Source: a virus
Reading direction: 5' to 3' (one strand)
IMG/VR virus record: IMGVR_UViG_3300048837_000975
Span: 61,691 to 125,690 of that record
Length of the DNA: 64,000 nt
The position numbers and the translations under genes were made by a program. Each line of letters starts with the position of its first letter. Within the stretch, counting starts at the first letter, position 1. A model generated the notes under the pieces. It was not told where the DNA came from. It saw only the letters and a list, made by a program, of their open reading frames with translations, and searched no databases. Of the stretch, positions 837 through 64,000 are shown one piece after another.

Positions 837-2042
837 GTGCCGTTCATCAAGAAAAAACTAGGCGTCAACGTGCTCGAGGCGGCTAAGTCTCGGATCTCTG
901 AAGTCTTCGACAACTTCGAGCACATCTACGTGTCGTTCAGCGGAGGCAAGGACAGCAGCGTCATGCTGCACCTTGTTATGGCCGAAGCAAAGAAGCGCAA
1001 CCGCAAGATCGGTGTGCTGTTCGTCGATCTGGAGGCGCAGTACGCTCTGACCATTGAGCACATTCGCGAGTGCTACGACGAGTACGCAGCCAACATCGAT
1101 CCGTACTGGGTTGCGCTTCCGATCGCCCTCAGGAACGCTGTCAGCAACTACCAGCCACAGTGGTTGTGCTGGGATCCTGACGCCAAGGACATGTGGGTGC
1201 GCGAACGCGATCCGATGTCGATTGCGGACGAGAGCTTCTTCCCGTTCTTCGAGCGCGGAATGGAGTTCGAGGACTTCATCGAGGTATTTGGTGAGTGGTA
1301 CGGCAAAGGCGAGCCAACGGCGTGTTTCGTCGGCATCCGATGCGATGAGAGCCTGAACCGGTGGCGCACACTGACCGGTGACAAGGCAATGTGGGGCGGC
1401 CGGAAGTGGAGTACCCAGGTCACGGAAAATGTGACGAACATATATCCAATCTACGATTGGAAAACTGCTGACCTGTGGGTTTTTTCCAGCAAAACCGGAC
1501 TAAAGTACAACAAGCTGTACGACCGGATGCACCAGGCCGGTTTGACCATACATGCGATGCGGATCTGCCAGCCGTACGGAGACGACCAGCGGAAGGGTCT
1601 CTGGCTGTACCAGGTGATTGAGCCTCAGACGTGGGGAAAGGTAGTAGCGCGTGTCAACGGTGCAAACTTTGGGAGTCTTTACGCCCAGGAGTCCGGCAAC
1701 GTCCTGGGGCGCCTCAAGATCGCGAAACCGAATGGGCACACCTGGAAAAGCTTCGCGAAGCTGCTATTGGATACCTTGCCGCCTGCGGCACGAGAACACT
1801 ACACAAACAAGATTATAGTGTTCCTGAAGTGGTACTCTGAACGCGGGTATCCAGATGACATTCCAGACGACGGGCCGGTCAACACAAGGGATACACCGAG
1901 CTGGGCAAGGGTGTGCAAGATGCTGCTCAAGAATGATTATTGGGGAAAAACGCTCGGTTTCAGTCAGCACAAGACTGGCGCCTACCAGAAGTATCTCGAG
2001 TTGATGCGCCGTCGCAAGGAAGCCTGGGGAATCAAAGTATGA
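837..2042 (+). CDS. PAPS-reductase-fold / DUF3440 protein (IbrA/YbdN-like)
   Basis: PP-loop SFSGGKDS, GIRCDES, YPIYDW and RICQPYG motifs; followed by a ParB-like partner. Confidence 0.85.
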   Translation: MPFIKKKLGVNVLEAAKSRISEVFDNFEHIYVSFSGGKDSSVMLHLVMAEAKKRNRKIGVLFVDLEAQYALTIEHIRECYDEYAANIDPYWVALPIALRNAVSNYQPQWLCWDPDAKDMWVRERDPMSIADESFFPFFERGMEFEDFIEVFGEWYGKGEPTACFVGIRCDESLNRWRTLTGDKAMWGGRKWSTQVTENVTNIYPIYDWKTADLWVFSSKTGLKYNKLYDRMHQAGLTIHAMRICQPYGDDQRKGLWLYQVIEPQTWGKVVARVNGANFGSLYAQESGNVLGRLKIAKPNGHTWKSFAKLLLDTLPPAAREHYTNKIIVFLKWYSERGYPDDIPDDGPVNTRDTPSWARVCKMLLKNDYWGKTLGFSQHKTGAYQKYLELMRRRKEAWGIKV

Positions 2043-2674
2043 ATGGGCTAATCGAAAAACTGGTTGCCGAGCTTGGTGCGCTGGACCTGGACGCGCGTGT
2101 TGAGGCGCTGAACAAGATTCGTGAGGCGCTTCACGATGTGAGCCCGTTCAAGGAGGAACCGGTCGACTTCGTTCGATGGGTTAAGTCCGATACAGTTTCC
2201 GCGAACGCGTGGAATCCAAATCACGTCGCTCCGCCTGAGATGAAGCTGTTGGAGCTGTCGATTGTCGCTGATGGGTACACTCAACCAGTGGTAGGGTACG
2301 CCATTGAATCCGGCTACGAGGTTGTTGACGGCTTTCACAGAAATCTAGTGGCCAAAACTTCACCTCAAGTACGCGAACGAGTGAAGGGTTACCTTCCGAT
2401 AGTCCGGATCAAATCCGACCGAGAAGATAAGGGAGATCGGATGGCGGCCACAATACGCCATAACAGGGCTCGCGGAAAACATGAGGTAATGGCCATGTCA
2501 ACCATAGTAGCCGACCTAATCAAGCGCAACTGGTCAGAAAGTCGTGTTGCTACAGAGCTCGGAATGTCCGCTGATGAGGTTTTACGCTTGCGTCAGGTTA
2601 CAGGGCTAGCAGAACTGTTCGCGGATCGCGAGTTCTCAGAGGCTTGGGAGATCGTTGAGGACACTCCGGAATGA
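2039..2674 (+). CDS. ParB/Srx-like nuclease-domain protein (IbrB/YbdM-like)
   Basis: ANAWNPN, GYTQPVV, VVDGFHR and TIRHNRARGKH motifs; ATGA overlap with the IbrA-like gene. Confidence 0.85.
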   Translation: MNGLIEKLVAELGALDLDARVEALNKIREALHDVSPFKEEPVDFVRWVKSDTVSANAWNPNHVAPPEMKLLELSIVADGYTQPVVGYAIESGYEVVDGFHRNLVAKTSPQVRERVKGYLPIVRIKSDREDKGDRMAATIRHNRARGKHEVMAMSTIVADLIKRNWSESRVATELGMSADEVLRLRQVTGLAELFADREFSEAWEIVEDTPE

Positions 2675-57800: not shown

Positions 57801-59551
57801 TACGAACGTAACAAGATCGGGACCGTCCTCAGCGATCCAGTATTCCAGGTCGCCCGGCTCGGTCATTGCCAGCTCAGCGTCCTGAGACATGTCGATCAGG
57901 ATGTCTCGAGCTTCACGAAAGCCGCTCTCGGTCTGCGGGTCGATTCCGACCTTGATCGCATAGCGGCGCACAGCACTCGGAGTAATGAACCACCTACCAA
58001 AGAATGTCACTTGATCATCTCCTTCAACCAGGCTTTTGCTTGAACTTTGCACTCGTCTGCGGTTAGCTCACTCTTTGCATAACACGAATTGAAATGGTTC
58101 CCTTCCTTGTCCCAAGCGTACCAGTACCAGCGCTTTTCGTTGAAATCCGCGTACCTGGAACCGAACTCCATCCCAGATATCACACTGACGCATCCGTGAC
58201 GCACTCCGTCTACGTTAACGCTCCAGCCGCGCGTTCCCTGGGTTACGCGAGCGTTGCCGGTTGCCGCAGGGATTCTCTTGAACGTAATCTTCGGCATTAC
58301 TTCGGTTCTTTCGTTGAGCACCAGACTCGGGCGCCGTTCACTGGTATGTTATCACCACCGGCTCTCATCATAGACTCCCATGCCTCGAGCTGGGTGTCGA
58401 ATGGCCCCATCCAGCGGATGAGGTCAGAGGAGGCGTACCACTTGATCTCAGGAGTCTTTTTGCTTGCTTTCTTCATCTTCAACCCTTTCACTTTCAGGGA
58501 CCGGGATATCCTTCCAGGTCAGATCTTTCTTTAGCACACGCATCGTTTCCGTGCCAATCACCTGGCGCACGATCCAGAACAACCAGAACCGGTTGTAGGC
58601 TCGCGCCGTCAGCCGCGGCGGCCAACCGGCTTTGCGGGCGAACTCCTGCGCTTCTTTTTTGGTTGCGAACGCTGCGAAGTCTTCTTGTGCGAGCGAGTAT
58701 CTACGTAGGTCGATAGGTAGCATGTCCCCTCCAGAATTCTTGCGGCCGCAAGCAGAAGCGCGGCGTCGCCCTCTTCGATCTTGAGAAGCCGAGCAACGTC
58801 AGCCGACTGAGCCCCGGCGCCCAGTAGGGTCCGAGACTTTTGGATCATCACCTCGTCCATGCTCACGAGCGATCCCCGTAGAGACGAAGAGCGATCTCGT
58901 CGGCCGACTCGTCGCTATCCATGTCCCAGTCACCCTCGCAGAATCCGAGGTATACCTCGTTTCGAGCATCACGAACACACTCGATCGGTAGCCCTACGTC
59001 CACGTGAGTTCTGTTACCCATCCGAACAATAGCGTCAGGAAACTGCAGCTTCAGAGCACGGAACGTAATCTCATCAATCGCGTCAGCGACACTGTCCGGG
59101 GACCACTCCCCGGTGTCTCCCATAGAGCACGTCTCAGTCGGACCAACGGTAATGATCTTCGTTTTCATACTGTTCAACCTTTCTTGTTCTTACTCACAGA
59201 GGTTCCGACGACTCTCTCAACGAACTCGGCCCACACGGCTGGCTCTTCCTTGTCAAACATGCCTTCAAGGTCATAATCGTCTTCCTCAAAGGTCTCTACC
59301 GTAACCTCGATAGTAACGACTCTAGGTGGCTTTGTTACCGTAACAGGCACCCACGCTTCATTTTGGTACACCTCAACTTGCTTCCCGACGGAGACGCTTG
59401 CCAAAGGCACGAGCTTCCTGTCAGGAGTTCGCGCCGGAGCGTCGCCACGAAGGCATAGGTGACCGGTAAACTCTACGGTGTCACCCGTTCCGAGAACCAA
59501 CCAGACCTTTAGGTTTTCTGTCGTGGATAGCCCTACGTTTTTCTTTGTCAT
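54823..59551 (-). other. Dense run of ~18 small hypothetical minus-strand CDSs (early/accessory region)
   Basis: Successive overlapping 60-130 aa ORFs, many ATGA-coupled; no recognisable domains. Confidence 0.6.
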
Positions 59552-59572
59552 CTTTCAAACCTTTCTTTCAAC

Positions 59573-59624
59573 GGACTCGTCAGCGACGGCCTTACCGTCG
59601 GACCGGGCGAACCCGGTTTCGTCC
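59573..59624 (-). ncRNA. Hammerhead ribozyme, type II (copy 1)
   Basis: GGAC-GAAA-CCGGG TTCG CCCGG-TC-CGACGG TAAGG CCGTCG-CTGACGA-GTCC. Confidence 0.92.
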
Positions 59625-60509
59625 TTACAGAACCGGCATAGCGTTCGGATCCGCCATGACAATCAGTGCTAGCATTGACATTGCGTCTTCTAGGCGCTTG
59701 CGGACGGCCTCGCTCTTGACCCCAAGTAGCCGCTCGTATGACTCGAGCTTGTCAGCCGCAACCTTGAGGCGCTCTTCTCTAATTCTCACGCTGCGAACGG
59801 TCCGGTTCTTAGTCGTTTGAACCAGCTCGCCCGCGCTAGCTTCCTCAACGATCGCGTTGATCGCTTCCTCGGTTTCGCGGTTAACGGCGTCGATCACGGC
59901 CTCGACCGCGTCCTCCGACTTTAGTGCAGGAATTGAATAAACCTTGTGGGAAGAAACTTCCTCAATGACATTCGAGATCTTCTCGAGCACCTCAATCCGG
60001 TCGGCCGGAACGAAGTACACTCCGCCGCGTGGCCGAAGCGGAACGCCGTTGCAGCGTCCGGCTACCATGGTCGTCAGCCACATGCTGAACTCGGTCACCC
60101 CGAGGTTCTCTCGCTCGTTCGTGAAAGCTTCGTTAATCTGTTCGGCAACCTCGCGGTTGCCCTTGAACTCCAGCTCAGAGTCTCCAGCGAGGCGGACCAC
60201 CACGACCGTTTCGTGGTCGAGCGGGTTCTCGTCGTCGCCCGTGCGAGCCTCAGCAAGGAGCGCGAAGGTTCCCTCTTGAACCGGACGAACGATTCGGCGA
60301 CCCTTGGCGAATTTTGCAAGCACGCTCCGGAGAGTTGCGGAAGCGCCAGGAGCGCTCGGGCAGTCGTCAGGATCCAGGCCGGAATCTTCCCACGCCTTTT
60401 GAAGCGCCGCGTACGGAACCGCACCGTCGAGGCTCCACATGACAATCGCGCCACACTTCTCGGATTCAACGTTCGTCACGATCAGATTCTTGATATTTTC
60501 CACTTTCAA
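59625..60509 (-). CDS. Hypothetical helical protein of the MoxR-VWA cluster
   Basis: 294 aa; LRPRGGVYFVP motif; GAGG RBS. Confidence 0.7.
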   Translation of the reverse strand: MKVENIKNLIVTNVESEKCGAIVMWSLDGAVPYAALQKAWEDSGLDPDDCPSAPGASATLRSVLAKFAKGRRIVRPVQEGTFALLAEARTGDDENPLDHETVVVVRLAGDSELEFKGNREVAEQINEAFTNERENLGVTEFSMWLTTMVAGRCNGVPLRPRGGVYFVPADRIEVLEKISNVIEEVSSHKVYSIPALKSEDAVEAVIDAVNRETEEAINAIVEEASAGELVQTTKNRTVRSVRIREERLKVAADKLESYERLLGVKSEAVRKRLEDAMSMLALIVMADPNAMPVL

Positions 60510-60530
60510 CCTCGCTTGAATTCTTTCAAC

Positions 60531-60582
60531 GGACTCGTCAGCGCACGCCTTACGTGCGGACCGGGTTTCCCCGGTTTCGTCC
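60531..60582 (-). ncRNA. Hammerhead ribozyme, type II (copy 2)
   Basis: GGAC-GAAA-CCGGG GAAA CCCGG-TC-CGCACG TAAGG CGTGCG-CTGACGA-GTCC. Confidence 0.92.
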
Positions 60583-60613
60583 TATCTACCATGCTAAGAG
60601 AAGCTACGCAACA

Positions 60614-61945
60614 CTAATTAATGACCACGGTATGAATGTGGGATGGCACGCTCTTTGCGTCGAATCCGCCGATCAGGCCGGCCACAAACTCAACGTCAGA
60701 GATCTCGTCAGGCCACGGCGTGTAACCGTCAGTCAGAATCACGATGATCCGGTGCGCCGGAAGGTTCTCGCGAGCGGCCTTTACGCCGACCCGCATATCC
60801 GTTCCGCCGCCGCCGACCAGCTTCACGTCTAGAGCGCTTGTGACGCGCTGAACCTTGCTCGCCGCCGAGTCGCAGCATATGACCGGAAGCTCGTGCTGGC
60901 CTAGCGCGTTTATGATCCCCTGAACCTCGGCCAGAACACCCTTGAGCATATCGTCGGACATAGACCCCGACGTATCCACAATCGCGCACACCTCCGGCTG
61001 CGGACGAACTAGGCGTGGCATGATAACGCCGGTCGGGTTACCGCGACGGCTAGGTCTCTGCCAGGTGTAGTCAGAGGCGCCGGAAGCCATCACAACGGCC
61101 TGCGATAGCTTCGCCCGAAGCTCCTGCTCCCACGGTACCTTAGGAGGAGCCAATCGATCGTCAGCCCACCGTTTAGCGAAAGCCGGCATATCCCCGCGCA
61201 TCTTACTAGCCGACTTTACCGCGTTCGCCAGGCTGTCGCGAAGCATATCGTTCTCGGTGTCAGTCAGCCCGCGTGGCGCGTCTTTCTCGCCGGCCTTATC
61301 TCCTGCCCCGTCGGTCTCTGAACCATCTTCCCAGGGCCGCTTCTGGCCATGCGCGCCGGATCCGCAATCCCAGGACTCGCCAGGCTTCCCGTGTCCGCCC
61401 TGACCTTGACCTTGTGGGCAGTTTTCGGAGCCCTGGCCTTGGCCTTGGCCCTTGCTTTCCTGGCCTTTACCGCCGTTTCCTTGCTGCTTCTGACCCTGAC
61501 CCTGTTGTTTCTTACCCTGCTGCTTTAGCAGGTCATAGTACTGCTCAAAAGGCAGGTGGTTCGGAAGCTTGTAGTTCTCCGGAAAGGCTCCTTCGGGCGG
61601 CAGATTGGCGCCGGCCGCCTTCATTCCGCCGTTGATCTCAAGATCCGCGGCGATATTCGATTGCTTTGCGTCGTACGCGTCACCCTCGCGAGCGGCAACG
61701 TACTTTGCGCGACCAGCGTGACCAAGCGCCCAGTGCCAGATCTCATGAACCAGAACCCAGGCCGCCTGTTCTAGAGTCCATGTGCTACCAATCAGCTTCG
61801 GATCGAGATACAGCGTGCCCCTATCATCGATCGCGAAGGTTCCGATACCGGGCTTCTCGATCATGGGCAGCGCGAACAGCGTCGTCGCCATATATGGGCA
61901 TTTGTGCCCGGCGATTGACCTAAGGTCTGCCAGGATTCGTGACAT
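60614..61945 (-). CDS. Metallopeptidase (HExxH) plus VWA domain protein (DUF2201-like)
   Basis: HEIWH; Gly/Gln linker; DTSGSM, GGGTD, LTDG. Confidence 0.88.
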   Translation of the reverse strand: MSRILADLRSIAGHKCPYMATTLFALPMIEKPGIGTFAIDDRGTLYLDPKLIGSTWTLEQAAWVLVHEIWHWALGHAGRAKYVAAREGDAYDAKQSNIAADLEINGGMKAAGANLPPEGAFPENYKLPNHLPFEQYYDLLKQQGKKQQGQGQKQQGNGGKGQESKGQGQGQGSENCPQGQGQGGHGKPGESWDCGSGAHGQKRPWEDGSETDGAGDKAGEKDAPRGLTDTENDMLRDSLANAVKSASKMRGDMPAFAKRWADDRLAPPKVPWEQELRAKLSQAVVMASGASDYTWQRPSRRGNPTGVIMPRLVRPQPEVCAIVDTSGSMSDDMLKGVLAEVQGIINALGQHELPVICCDSAASKVQRVTSALDVKLVGGGGTDMRVGVKAARENLPAHRIIVILTDGYTPWPDEISDVEFVAGLIGGFDAKSVPSHIHTVVIN

Positions 61946-61962
61946 TAAACTCTCCCTTCAAT

Positions 61963-62014
61963 GGACTCATCAGCGCTGGCTTCACCAGCGGACCGGGTTT
62001 CCCCGGTTTCGTCC
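61963..62014 (-). ncRNA. Hammerhead ribozyme, type II (copy 3)
   Basis: GGAC-GAAA-CCGGG GAAA CCCGG-TC-CGCTGG TGAAG CCAGCG-CTGATGA-GTCC. Confidence 0.92.
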
Positions 62015-62022
62015 TTTTTACT

Positions 62023-63186
62023 TCATGTGCTCCTACCTTGCAAGCCAATACTTTGAAGATACTTCGCGTAAGTAAGCAACTCTTTCGGCGGGCGCCATCC
62101 GCGAGGCTGATTCGAGGCGAGAATCCGGCCGGCCGCCACGGCAAGATCCGGACGATCGGCCTCAAAGCACCTGTGCATCACCTTGAAACCGCGTTCCCAT
62201 CGTTCCGGAGTGTTTCTAGCAACAACCGCTCCGGCGACGGACATAAGGATCGCGAAGGCTTTGTCGCCACGGTCCTTCGGAAGCACTAGCTTGGTGGGAT
62301 CCGCCAGCAGCGTCTCGGGATCCGGTAGGTCAAGCTGCTCGGCATACGTCAGGAATTGGCGAGCGGCTCCCTCGCCAACGGCTCCAGCTACCAGGATCCG
62401 GAGAACGTCGTGCGCGTTGCGAAGCCCGGGGTTCTTCTTGTCCGGAAGCAGCCCCACGCCGGCCGCGTTGCACGCCGCCAGGAGTCGCGATACCACCGTC
62501 CAGGAGCGAAGAGACGGCCATGGCTTAGACTGATCGGAACGCGCTTTCGGGACCACTTGCATTGCAGCGTCACCGAAACGCATGGCATACGACGCGACAA
62601 GCGTGCGAGCCTCTCCGATATGCGTCTCTTCCCAGTTTTCCGGAACAGGAACGATCAGATTGGTCGGAGCCGGGAACCCGGCGATCATCTGTTCCGCCCA
62701 GTATGCAGAGTCTAGTTTCCAGTCAAGGTGCACGAATCTGTTCGCAAGCGGAGCGGAGAGAGCATATCCGCTTTCGGCAAGTTCCGGCGGGTTCATTGCG
62801 GCGATCGTGGACATATTGTCAACCTTCACGTCACCCCACGTGGAGTCGAGAATTCCGCGAAGAGCAGCGGAACGAACGGCAGGCGGCGCGTTCGAGAATT
62901 CGTCCAGGAATAGACCTTTGCGACCCTTGCCCTCGGTCAGTCGAGCAAGCCACGCCGCGGGAAGCAGCGCGACCCGATCACCTTGCGGAACCGGAAAGCC
63001 GCCAAAGTCAACCGGCTCGGACAGTGACGCGATCCGTGTGTCAGAGACCGTGCAAAGCTCGCTCATCAGCGCCTCAACGATCGCCGTCTTAGCAACGCCG
63101 GGCTCACCGACCAGCAGGGCCGGCGTATTGGTTTGAATCAGGATCGAAACCGCCCTGATCAGATTCTGTGTGTGTTCAACGCTCAT
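62023..63186 (-). CDS. MoxR-like AAA+ ATPase
   Basis: GEPGVAKT Walker A, LFLDE Walker B, AAMNP, LANRF. Confidence 0.88.
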   Translation of the reverse strand: MSVEHTQNLIRAVSILIQTNTPALLVGEPGVAKTAIVEALMSELCTVSDTRIASLSEPVDFGGFPVPQGDRVALLPAAWLARLTEGKGRKGLFLDEFSNAPPAVRSAALRGILDSTWGDVKVDNMSTIAAMNPPELAESGYALSAPLANRFVHLDWKLDSAYWAEQMIAGFPAPTNLIVPVPENWEETHIGEARTLVASYAMRFGDAAMQVVPKARSDQSKPWPSLRSWTVVSRLLAACNAAGVGLLPDKKNPGLRNAHDVLRILVAGAVGEGAARQFLTYAEQLDLPDPETLLADPTKLVLPKDRGDKAFAILMSVAGAVVARNTPERWERGFKVMHRCFEADRPDLAVAAGRILASNQPRGWRPPKELLTYAKYLQSIGLQGRST

Positions 63187-63203
63187 CTTCTACTCCCTTC
63201 AAT

Positions 63204-63255
63204 GGACTCATCAGCGCTGGCTTCACCAGCGGACCCGCCGGAGCGGGTTTCGTAC
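63204..63255 (-). ncRNA. Hammerhead ribozyme, type II (copy 4; one stem II mismatch)
   Basis: GTAC-GAAA-CCCGC TCCG GCGGG-TC-CGCTGG TGAAG CCAGCG-CTGATGA-GTCC. Confidence 0.85.
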
Positions 63256-63256
63256 T

Positions 63257-63469
63257 TTACGCAAGTTCCATCGCGCCGTCTTCTGCGAACGTTGCCCGAT
63301 CCATGACCCACGAATCAAGGAGATCTCTGATAGCACGGCGCAAAGCCTTGTCGCAAGCGATTCCGAGATCAAGCAGATCCTTTTCTCCGCACCATACCGC
63401 GATCCGATCCTCGGGACGGATCTTGGAGATCAAACGCTTTGCAGTCTTGCTAGAATCTTTTCGTGACAT
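63257..63469 (-). CDS. Small hypothetical protein
   Basis: ORF fills the interval between two ribozymes. Confidence 0.6.
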   Translation of the reverse strand: MSRKDSSKTAKRLISKIRPEDRIAVWCGEKDLLDLGIACDKALRRAIRDLLDSWVMDRATFAEDGAMELA

Positions 63470-63489
63470 AATCTTGCCTTTCAACGTGT

Positions 63490-63541
63490 GGACTCATCAG
63501 GCGGCGCCTTACGCCGCGACCGGGTTTCCCCGGTTTCGTCC
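63490..63541 (-). ncRNA. Hammerhead ribozyme, type II (copy 5)
   Basis: GGAC-GAAA-CCGGG GAAA CCCGG-TC-GCGGCG TAAGG CGCCGC-CTGATGA-GTCC. Confidence 0.92.
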
Positions 63542-63542
63542 T

Positions 63543-63848
63543 CTACTTTGACTTTCCGATCGCTTTCTCTAGGTCAGCCGACCAGCGTTCGATCCCTTCG
63601 GATGATAGGCGCCAGGTGTTGTCCTTTAGCCACATGCTCTTACCGCGGGTTTCGTAATCAGACTTATCAAGCTTCACTACGCTGCGCTTTCCACCGAACG
63701 CTGCGATCAGAACGAATCCGTCACTGCCGTAATCGAGAGTTAGGCTGAGATCCTCTCCCTTTACCTGTACGCCTGGCACGCTGACCCGGCGAACCTTTCC
63801 AGTGCTCCACCGGACCTTTGAAAGCGATTCTTTCAATGCTTCAATCAT
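63543..63848 (-). CDS. Hypothetical protein
   Basis: GGAG RBS; ORF fills the interval between two ribozymes. Confidence 0.65.
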   Translation of the reverse strand: MIEALKESLSKVRWSTGKVRRVSVPGVQVKGEDLSLTLDYGSDGFVLIAAFGGKRSVVKLDKSDYETRGKSMWLKDNTWRLSSEGIERWSADLEKAIGKSK

Positions 63849-63860
63849 ATTCTTCTCCGT

Positions 63861-63913
63861 GGACTCATCAGGCGGCGCCTTACGCCGCGACCGGGACAGG
63901 CCCGGTTTCGTCC
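63861..63913 (-). ncRNA. Hammerhead ribozyme, type II (copy 6)
   Basis: GGAC-GAAA-CCGGG CCTGT CCCGG-TC-GCGGCG TAAGG CGCCGC-CTGATGA-GTCC. Confidence 0.92.
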
Positions 63914-64000
63914 TATACCGCCAGCTCCGCCAGCTCTTTGGCCGCGGCCGCGATCTTCTCGTTCAGCTCCCCAAGGGCTTCGTCGACCATATCCGAGAAG

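What the first reader, a model, noticed from the sequence alone, without database searches (positions are those of the whole stretch)
59573..63913. Six hammerhead ribozymes at six consecutive gene junctions of one operon
Seen: on the minus strand each junction contains GGAC-GAAA-stem III-GUC-stem I-CUGA(U/C)GA-GUCC, at 63913, 63541, 63255, 62014, 60582 and 59624. Stem I differs between copies (CGACGG, CGCACG, CGCTGG, GCGGCG) yet always pairs perfectly, so covariation supports the fold. Each starts within about 0-30 nt of the upstream stop codon and ends just before the next RBS. Known: this is the hammerhead catalytic core in type II topology, leaving 5'-OH and 2',3'-cyclic phosphate ends. Inference: the polycistron (MoxR, peptidase-VWA and neighbours) self-processes into single-gene RNAs with a hairpin at each end, acting as natural insulators and stabilisers independent of host RNases. 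The series may continue beyond the window.
Basis: partly seen in the sequence, partly recalled or inferred. Interest (0 to 1): 0.9.

Follow-up and report, generated by a model that had tools for sequence, protein, structure and literature searches.

The report
Hammerhead ribozyme array in phage operon
Six small self-cutting RNA motifs (nine in the whole contig) sit between the genes at the head of one operon of an uncultured phage and probably cut its long message into single-gene pieces, a layout known in phages since 2011.

Summary
All six minus-strand elements are complete type II hammerhead motifs with a full catalytic core. Stems I and III covary, and each element is packed between a stop codon and the next ribosome-binding site. 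My covariance model finds three more at the other end of the same 125,690-bp virus contig, on the same strand, giving nine.

None reaches Rfam's threshold for Hammerhead_II, and they lack the loop I/3'-tail pseudoknot typical of type II. Identical-format copies in other viral contigs lie in arrays beside elements that do pass.

Two close relatives keep hammerheads at the same junctions, but with stem modules swapped between copies. The slot between the first two ribozymes holds a 101-aa gene here, an unrelated 86-aa gene in one relative, and nothing in contigs from three other samples.

Distant phages with the same MoxR–VWA gene pair have no hammerheads.

Cleavage and the insulator/stabiliser role are inferred: no RNA data set was found.

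Clustered hammerheads flanking phage genes were published in 2011. This scan has already noted such arrays in other genomes and at the other end of this one. This is a clean, large further example and not a new system.

The parts
63861..63913 (-). HH1, type II hammerhead. Predicted cleavage after C at 63889 (between 63889 and 63888). The UAG stop of the upstream gene overlaps the first G of stem II.
   Evidence: (77.0 bits)
63490..63541 (-). HH2, type II hammerhead. Predicted cleavage between 63518 and 63517.
   Evidence: (79.8 bits)
63204..63255 (-). HH3, type II hammerhead with GUAC in place of GGAC (one U-C mismatch in stem II). Predicted cleavage between 63232 and 63231. It is the only copy that Rfam Hammerhead_II reports in the window, below threshold (27.3 bits; gathering score 37).
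   Evidence: 77.5 bits; both relatives have GGAC at this junction
61963..62014 (-). HH4, type II hammerhead. Predicted cleavage between 61991 and 61990.
   Evidence: 86.3 bits
60531..60582 (-). HH5, type II hammerhead. Predicted cleavage between 60559 and 60558. It is the only copy set well back from the stop codon (31 nt).
   Evidence: (85.8 bits)
59573..59624 (-). HH6, type II hammerhead, the last of the array. Predicted cleavage between 59601 and 59600. The UAA stop abuts GGAC.
   Evidence: (84.6 bits)
63913..63999 (-). 3' end (28 codons plus stop) of a small gene cut by the contig end. It is in frame with an ORF start at the other contig end.
   Evidence: read
63543..63848 (-). 101-aa gene with no family. 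It is a strain-variable cassette: replaced in L050 and absent in contigs of three runs.
63257..63469 (-). 70-aa gene with no family, conserved in L050 and L051.
62023..63186 (-). MoxR-like AAA+ ATPase, 387 aa.
   Evidence: AAA_5, 23.5 bits, cut-off 22; phrog_1297, E 3.3e-37
60614..61945 (-). DUF2201_N putative metallopeptidase plus DUF2201 VWA-like protein, 443 aa, with a Q/G-rich linker.
   Evidence: E 6.2e-33 and 3e-15
59625..60503 (-). DUF6744 protein, 292 aa from the GTG start.
   Evidence: E 2.1e-09
59174..59551 (-). 125-aa gene with no family. It is the first gene after the last hammerhead and the start of a run of tightly packed or overlapping small minus-strand ORFs without hammerheads.

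Best explanation
These are genuine type II hammerhead self-cleaving ribozymes, six in the window and nine in the contig. They are transcribed as part of one long minus-strand message at the head of a phage operon.

Each folds between the stop codon of one gene and the leader/RBS of the next, and cuts after the C of GUC. Every upstream piece then ends in the stem III hairpin with a 2',3'-cyclic phosphate, about 22-25 nt past its stop codon. Every downstream piece begins with a 5'-OH, the stem I hairpin, and a shared UUGAARG-type leader.

The message is thereby converted into single-gene mRNAs, or short-block mRNAs where genes overlap. Their stability and translation no longer depend on their neighbours.

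At the DNA level, the unit 'ribozyme + leader + gene' behaves as an exchangeable cassette. The repeated ribozymes recombine with each other, and slots between them gain, lose or swap genes between strains.

Shown here: motif, fold, covariation, placement, conservation in close relatives, cassette polymorphism. Inferred: cleavage in vivo, end chemistry (established hammerhead chemistry), and the effect on stability and translation.
For: - Complete core and three helices in 6 of 6 window copies and 9 of 9 contig copies.
- Covariation in the six copies: 99.0% of 102 cells paired and 7 of 17 pairs with double changes; 0 of 500 shuffles reach the observed value on four measures, 4 of 500 on the fifth.
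- Covariation in 23 copies from 8 sources: 99.2% of 375 cells paired, 11 of 17 pairs with double changes, 0 of 500 shuffles. This alignment was fitted to the model, so it leans that way.
- All nine lie on the coding strand of genes with family hits.
- The stop codon lies -1 to +8 nt from GGAC in 8 of 9 copies. GUCC lies 12-27 nt before the start codon in 9 of 9.
- The two junctions inside the array without a ribozyme are overlapping stop/start junctions.
- Relatives L050 (86% nt identity) and L051 (95%) keep a hammerhead at each shared junction.
- Same-format copies in other viral contigs stand in arrays beside elements that pass Rfam's Hammerhead_II cut-off: 45.3, 40.2 and 39.8 bits against 37.
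- Published precedent: triple prophage arrays cleave in vitro and in E. coli (PMC3088659, passages). Three type II hammerheads cleave in D. vulgaris cells (PMC8782182, passages).
- Cassette behaviour, module swapping: orthologous junctions carry different stem I/III modules that match paralogous copies.
- Cassette behaviour, slot content: the HH1-HH2 slot holds a 101-aa gene here and an unrelated 86-aa gene in L050. It is bridged empty by contigs of 3 of the 4 runs laid, from 2 studies, with sides of 141, 141 and 54 letters.
Against: - No RNA evidence of any kind was obtained.
- 0 of 6 window copies reach Rfam's gathering score. The best are 27.3 bits in the window and 34.0 for a copy at the other contig end.
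- There is no loop I/3'-tail pseudoknot. The best complementarity is 3-4 bp at inconsistent places in 9 of 9 copies. In the tested type II ribozyme of PMC3088659, loss of that pseudoknot lowered the rate 20- to more than 100-fold, so these copies may be slow at physiological Mg2+.
- Stem II is only 4 bp and open. HH3 has a mismatch in it and does not form it in the minimum-energy fold.
- Two copies are no more stable than roughly a tenth of shuffles.
- A terminating ribosome on the abutting stop codon would cover stem II and the 5' strand of stem III.
- The array is not conserved with the MoxR-VWA genes. There was no credible hit in 36 IMG/VR loci (528,111 bases) or in 10 further metagenome loci.
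- Logan contigs can misjoin at repeats.
Confidence: 0.75

Rival explanations
1. The elements matter mainly as DNA repeats. They would be homology patches that let phages swap accessory gene cassettes, with RNA cleavage weak, incidental or lost.
For: - Three states of one slot: a 101-aa gene, an unrelated 86-aa gene, or empty.
- Stem modules are exchanged between copies in relatives that are only 5-14% diverged.
- HH1 and HH2 share identical 3' halves.
- The tertiary pseudoknot is missing.
Against: Recombination alone needs no catalytic core. All 13 core positions are intact in 9 of 9 copies and in the relatives' complete copies. Every stem change is compensated: 99% of cells are paired. That pattern is selection on the RNA fold. 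The two roles are compatible, so this reading adds to the best explanation more than it competes with it.
Confidence: 0.1
2. Cleavage is regulated, not constitutive. Because the stop codon abuts or overlaps stem II, ribosome traffic on the upstream gene (or Mg2+ or another signal) would decide whether each slow, pseudoknot-less ribozyme folds, tying mRNA separation to translation.
For: - The stop codon lies -1 to +8 nt from GGAC in 8 of 9 copies.
- No tertiary contact was found.
- PMC3088659 raises regulated cleavage for slower phage variants (Discussion passage).
Against: Tight packing is also expected from simple genome economy. HH5 sits 31 nt from its stop codon. Nothing resembling a ligand-binding or switch element is present. 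No kinetic data exist.
Confidence: 0.12
3. The motifs are inactive relics or plain hairpin pairs that serve host RNases or act as transcription or translation punctuation without self-cleavage.
For: - Scores fall below the Rfam threshold.
- Stem II is short, with a mismatch in HH3.
- No RNA data were found (this is a gap, not evidence).
Against: There is no core substitution in 9 of 9 copies or in the relatives' complete copies, despite 5-14% DNA divergence in the flanks. Hairpins alone would not conserve GAAA and CUGAYGA. No terminator-like U tracts appear above chance.
Confidence: 0.05

Closest known systems
Clustered hammerhead ribozymes flanking single genes or short gene blocks in prophages (Perreault et al. 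2011, PMC3088659; passages read)
   Same: Several hammerheads, type II among them, lie on the coding strand between phage genes. They were proposed to cut long phage transcripts into single-gene or operon-length mRNAs. The flanked genes are not constant.
   Different: Here there are nine in one array, against the triple arrangements tested there. The flanked genes include large ones (387 and 443 aa). The copies lack the pseudoknot. Cassette turnover at the ribozymes is documented here. Activity was shown there and not here.
Rfam RF02276 Hammerhead_II (clan CL00010)
   Same: Same core, same permutation (stems I and III capped, stem II open), same bacterial and phage context.
   Different: All window copies score below the gathering score of 37 bits. 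The best are 27.3 bits in the window and 34.0 at the other contig end. They have short loops and no loop I/3'-tail pseudoknot.
Type II hammerheads of Desulfovibrio vulgaris, shown to cleave in vivo by cyPhyRNA-seq (PMC8782182; passages read)
   Same: Type II hammerheads near phage-like genes, two of them close together. The same method would test the present array.
   Different: Those are three scattered copies in a bacterial chromosome, not an array at successive junctions.
Synthetic ribozyme insulators such as RiboJ (recalled from memory; no call)
   Same: A self-cleaving hammerhead placed before an RBS gives each gene a defined 5' end with a hairpin, independent of upstream sequence.
   Different: Those are engineered and derived from a satellite RNA hammerhead. 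Here the arrangement is natural and repeated at each junction. The insulating effect is untested.

Membership tests
Hammerhead ribozyme (any type) | Conserved core C3 U4 G5 A6 N7 G8 A9, G12 A13 A14, A15.1-U16.1 and H17, using the criteria listed in PMC3088659 Methods | tested here: met
   6 of 6 window copies and 9 of 9 contig copies read CUGAYGA, GAAA and GUC with A15.1-U16.1.
Hammerhead ribozyme (any type) | Three helices around the core, with standard pairs next to the core (10.1-11.1, 1.1-2.1, 15.1-16.1) and no multiple mispairs | tested here: met
   99.0% of 102 cells are paired. The single non-pair is at 10.3-11.3 of HH3, not next to the core.
Hammerhead ribozyme (any type) | Helices supported by compensatory change | tested here: met
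   7 of 17 pairs among the six copies and 11 of 17 among 23 copies have changes on both sides; at most 4 of 500 shuffles reach any observed measure and none does. Stem II hardly varies.
Hammerhead ribozyme (any type) | Site-specific self-cleavage giving 5'-OH and 2',3'-cyclic phosphate ends | not testable with these tools
   No RNA run holds the stretch. A cleavage assay or end-specific RNA-seq is needed.
Type II hammerhead (Rfam RF02276) | Permutation: stems I and III closed by loops, stem II open | tested here: met
Type II hammerhead (Rfam RF02276) | Score at or above Rfam's gathering cut-off (37 bits) | tested here: not met
   0 of 6 at gathering. HH3 scores 27.3 bits. The copy at C1:1106-1161 scores 34.0 bits. 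Array neighbours of same-format copies in L010 and L011 pass with 45.3, 40.2 and 39.8 bits.
Type II hammerhead (Rfam RF02276) | Pseudoknot of 4 or more bp between loop I and the tail just 3' of stem II. This is present in a majority of type II, so it is typical and not obligatory (PMC3088659). | tested here: not met
   The best loop-tail helix is 3-4 bp including G-U, at different distances, in 9 of 9 copies.
Clustered phage/prophage hammerheads (Perreault 2011) | Several hammerheads in close proximity on the coding strand, flanking single genes or short blocks in a phage genome | tested here: met
   Six junctions within 4.3 kb of the window, and nine in the virus record. The genes are on the same strand.

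The most novel reading that the evidence does not exclude
Each RNA released between two ribozymes starts with stem I-CUGAYGA-GUCC and ends with GGAC-GAAA-stem III-GUC>p. Because stem II is the same in every copy, the two ends of one fragment can pair into a complete, nicked hammerhead. They could then be re-ligated, by the reverse hammerhead reaction or by a host RtcB-type ligase, into circular single-gene mRNAs that resist exonucleases.

Nothing here excludes this. However, the GAC/GUC stem II is common to type II hammerheads of at least 119 other viral stretches, so its constancy is not special to this array. Perreault et al. also report looking for circular or spliced products without finding them (data not shown).
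Probability: 0.05. Interest if true: 0.8.

Novelty: new member of a known kind. Interest (0 to 1): 0.3.

Why it matters
The biological role of bacterial and phage hammerheads is still called largely elusive (PMC6765202, passages).

A nine-copy array gives a compact test bed for whether such ribozymes insulate and stabilise single-gene messages. It cuts out genes of very different size: 45 aa (only if the contig ends are adjacent) to 443 aa.

The added observation is that the slots between ribozymes change content between close strains, and that stem modules move between copies. This suggests the ribozyme-plus-leader unit lets a phage plug in accessory genes with context-independent expression.

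One full-text search found no paper on that idea. Supplements and non-open papers were not seen.

Tried and rejected
- **RNA evidence.** No RNA holder is listed for window 59400-64000, so expression, strand and ends could not be examined.

- The contigs of the 54-66% identical MoxR relatives (P0002-P0005) could therefore not be fetched, which leaves a gap between the 86-95% and the under-50% relatives.

- **Close relatives in IMG/VR.** A single-protein scan of viral contigs found nothing.

- **Distant relatives.** R1 gave no credible hit in 36 IMG/VR loci (one hit at 17.4 bits, E 0.081), nor in L052-L061 (best 15.1 bits). Rfam at gathering score gave 0 hits in the 9 closest of those 36 loci (141,563 bases; the other 27 were not run). 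R1 is tuned to this subtype, so diverged hammerheads could be missed.

- **Promoters and terminators.** Consensus scans gave nothing above shuffles. A single transcript is therefore inferred from gene packing only.

- **tRNA-like element.** ARAGORN found no tRNA-like gene in C1:1-2664. Rfam at E up to 0.1 found only a hammerhead there.

- **Circularity of the contig.**
  - There are no terminal repeats.
  - The ORF that starts at C1:50 (16 codons plus 2 nt to the contig start) joins in frame with 1 nt plus 28 codons plus stop at the window end (read). That has a 1-in-3 chance by accident.
  - Contigs of X1-X3 carry 274 other letters between window 64000 and the next hammerhead-like element. 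Direct joining would give 60.
  - Adjacency of the two ends is therefore plausible but unproven. CheckV completeness is 78%.

- **Uncovered parts.** Bins 59400-59553 and 63558-63711 have no cover in 4 of 4 runs. For the second, a contig joins across it, and that is used as evidence. For the first, I could not tell a diverged gene from a different one, so I draw no conclusion about the slot after HH6.

- **Short-sided joints.** Joints with sides under 30 letters (60584>63487, 63253>63489, 61958>63858) were set aside as likely repeat artefacts.

- **'Invariant stem II is special to this array'.** Rejected. At least 119 other viral stretches have the same GAC/GUC form, and stem II varies within the L011 array.

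- **RAGATH-32.** One weak hit (19.1 bits against 41.8, E 0.88) inside an ORF is treated as chance.

- **Papers.** PMC4509812 (Weinberg 2015) is not held. PMC5737381 holds no 'RAGATH' text. The search gave nothing useful. Supplements were closed, so Figures S1-S5 of PMC3088659 (array maps, pseudoknot statistics) were not seen.


Full report
**What is there**

On the minus strand of window 59573-63913, six elements read GGAC-GAAA-stem III-GUC-stem I-CUGAYGA-GUCC. The 3' core word CTGAYGAGTCC has exactly six perfect matches in 64 kb, all on the minus strand and all at these places. With one mismatch allowed there are 11 matches, against a mean of 2.93 in 100 shuffles, none of which reaches 11.

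RNAfold gives the three-way junction as the minimum-energy fold for 5 of 6. HH3 carries GUAC for GGAC, which is a U-C mismatch, and does not close stem II. For HH1 and HH6, 18 and 25 of 200 shuffles fold as well, so energy alone is not convincing.

Covariation is convincing:
- 99.0% of 102 cells pair.
- 7 of 17 pairs change on both sides.
- 0 of 500 shuffles reach the observed value on four measures, and 4 of 500 on the fifth.
- Slid controls pair at 28-42%.

Stem III also has a compensated variant.

**Not six but nine**

The window is the last 64 kb of a single 125,690-bp IMG/VR virus record, classed as linear with a CheckV estimate of 78%. A covariance model built from the six (R1) scores them 77-86 bits with filters off. 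The next hit in the window is 12.2 bits.

In the whole record, R1 finds three more at 62.7-88.6 bits: C1:1164-1101, 813-753 and 121-61, again on the minus strand. A regular expression finds the same nine and nothing else.

A small ORF starting at C1:50 runs off the contig start and is in frame with the 28-codon ORF tail at the window end. The two ends may therefore be neighbours in a circular or permuted genome, making one array of nine. This is weak evidence:
- The frame match has a one-in-three chance.
- There are no end repeats.
- Contigs from other samples have 274 letters, not 60, between the window end and the next hammerhead-like element.

**Anatomy**

- The stop codon lies -1 to +8 nt from GGAC in 8 of 9 copies, and the UAG shares its G with stem II in four. 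It lies 31 nt away in HH5.
- GUCC lies 12-27 nt before the next start codon in 9 of 9.
- The tail usually carries UUGAARG. Of the 11 minus-strand occurrences of that word that precede an ORF of 40 aa or more, 8 lie in the array, one precedes the first gene of the operon, and 2 lie further down the same operon.
- The two junctions inside the array without a ribozyme are overlapping stop/start junctions.
- After HH6, the minus-strand ORFs are tightly packed and R1 finds nothing.

Flanked genes:

| Gene | Size | Family evidence |
|---|---|---|
| MoxR-like ATPase | 387 aa | AAA_5; phrog_1297, E 3.3e-37 |
| DUF2201_N/DUF2201 peptidase-VWA protein | 443 aa | Pfam |
| DUF6744 protein | 292 aa | Pfam |
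| Several small proteins | 64-125 aa | no family |

**Family membership**

All core positions and the pairs next to the core meet the criteria listed in PMC3088659, and the permutation is type II.

Rfam 15, however, reports nothing at gathering score. At a loose threshold only HH3 appears, at 27.3 bits against 37. The copy at C1:1106-1161 reaches 34.0 bits.

The likely reason is the missing loop I/3'-tail pseudoknot that the type II consensus carries. The best complementarity is 3-4 bp, at inconsistent places, in 9 of 9. In the ribozyme tested in that paper, removing the pseudoknot cut the rate 20- to more than 100-fold. The paper also says many hammerheads show no such contact.

Same-format copies in unrelated viral contigs sit in arrays with elements that do pass Rfam:
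- L011 has six R1 hits within 2.6 kb, two of them at 45.3 and 39.8 bits in Rfam.
- L010 has one at 40.2 bits.

I therefore file these as type II hammerheads of a pseudoknot-less subtype, with activity untested.

**Relatives**

The ATPase has many homologues (625 with E up to 0.001 among 8000 candidates scored), and MoxR-VWA pairs are common in viral contigs. None of 36 IMG/VR loci (48% identity or less) or 10 further metagenome loci has a credible R1 hit. The 9 closest IMG/VR loci have no Rfam hit at all. The array is a lineage-specific addition and not a feature of the MoxR-VWA module.

Two short metagenome contigs are close:
- L050 has 86% nt identity and 97% amino-acid identity in the ATPase.
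- L051 has 95% nt identity.

Both keep a hammerhead at every shared junction, with the core intact. The stems, however, are shuffled:
- L050's copy at the HH2 junction has the stem III of the copy at C1:1163 and the stem I of HH6.
- L050's copy at the HH4 junction has the stem III of HH3 and the stem I of HH1/HH2.
- L051's HH3 keeps stem III but has the stem I of HH1/HH2.

By BLAST, each L050 copy matches a paralogous window copy better than the orthologous one. That points to exchange between copies rather than step-by-step compensation. Both relatives have GGAC where HH3 has GUAC.

**Cassette turnover**

The slot between HH1 and HH2 holds:
- a 101-aa gene here and in L051;
- an unrelated 86-aa gene in L050, with no match in this genome (best E 3.7), again with its UAG overlapping GGAC;
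- nothing in Logan contigs of runs X1, X2 and X3. These come from two studies. One contig joins 63484 directly to 63860, with 141, 141 and 54 letters on the shorter side.

Contigs built from short words can misjoin at repeats, so long reads should confirm this.

**How common**

In the 80 loci fetched, R1 gave 116 hits at E up to 0.001, with 7 in L115, 5 each in L078 and L094, and 4 each in L069, L070, L077 and L111.

Earlier notes of this scan (unchecked by me except where stated) list arrays of 7-13 copies in other phage genomes. They also include a follow-up at the other end of this same genome that counted nine as well.

**Mechanism and rivals**

The best reading, at about 0.75, is self-cleavage of one long minus-strand transcript into hairpin-ended single-gene or short-block mRNAs, as proposed and partly shown for prophage arrays. 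On top of this, the ribozyme-plus-leader unit acts as a swappable cassette boundary at the DNA level.

Less likely readings:
- a mainly recombinational role;
- cleavage gated by ribosomes or ions, suggested by stop codons abutting stem II and by the missing tertiary contact;
- dead relics, argued against by an untouched core across 5-14% diverged relatives.

The circular-mRNA idea remains possible but has no support.

**Verdict**

The kind of system has been known since 2011. This is a new member of a known kind, with a useful extra observation on cassette turnover.

Noticed in passing
G000 C1:61-121, 753-813 and 1101-1164, minus strand (outside the window, at the other contig end; locus L009): Three more hammerheads of the same format, flanking 91-, 94- and 72/72/64-aa genes. 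The contig starts and ends inside what may be one small gene.
   Followed up: yes
L009 (C1) about 1440-2240, minus strand: A GC-rich stretch of roughly 800 nt lies upstream of the first gene of the operon. It has no plausible minus-strand gene (only short, low-complexity ORFs) and carries repeated short words and inverted repeats. No sigma-70-like promoter, no ARAGORN hit and no Rfam hit at E up to 0.1 apart from a hammerhead.
   Followed up: partly
window 59373-59448, minus strand: Weak match to Rfam RAGATH-32 (19.1 bits against a gathering score of 41.8; E 0.88) inside the 125-aa ORF that follows the last hammerhead. Probably chance.
   Followed up: no
window about 61390-61540, minus strand: Q/G/K-rich low-complexity linker between the DUF2201_N and VWA-like parts of the 443-aa protein. 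Read laying skipped repeats at 61424-61460.
   Followed up: no
top of stem I in all copies (e.g. window 63880/63876, minus strand): The U-G pair closing the purine-rich loop I is kept in 20 of the 22 sequences that have letters at both positions, from five different viral contigs, with one U-A and one non-pair. This hints at a tertiary role in place of the missing pseudoknot.
   Followed up: partly
window 60614-61945, minus strand: PHROG 1314, which this protein matches at E 3.4e-57, is labelled 'HNH endonuclease'. Pfam sees a DUF2201 metallopeptidase plus VWA-like domain. The PHROG label looks wrong for this protein.
   Followed up: no
leaders after each hammerhead (e.g. window 59572-59552, minus strand): A UUGAARG word sits between GUCC and the start codon. 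It is nearly confined to this operon: 8 of 11 ORF-preceding occurrences on the minus strand lie in the array.
   Followed up: partly
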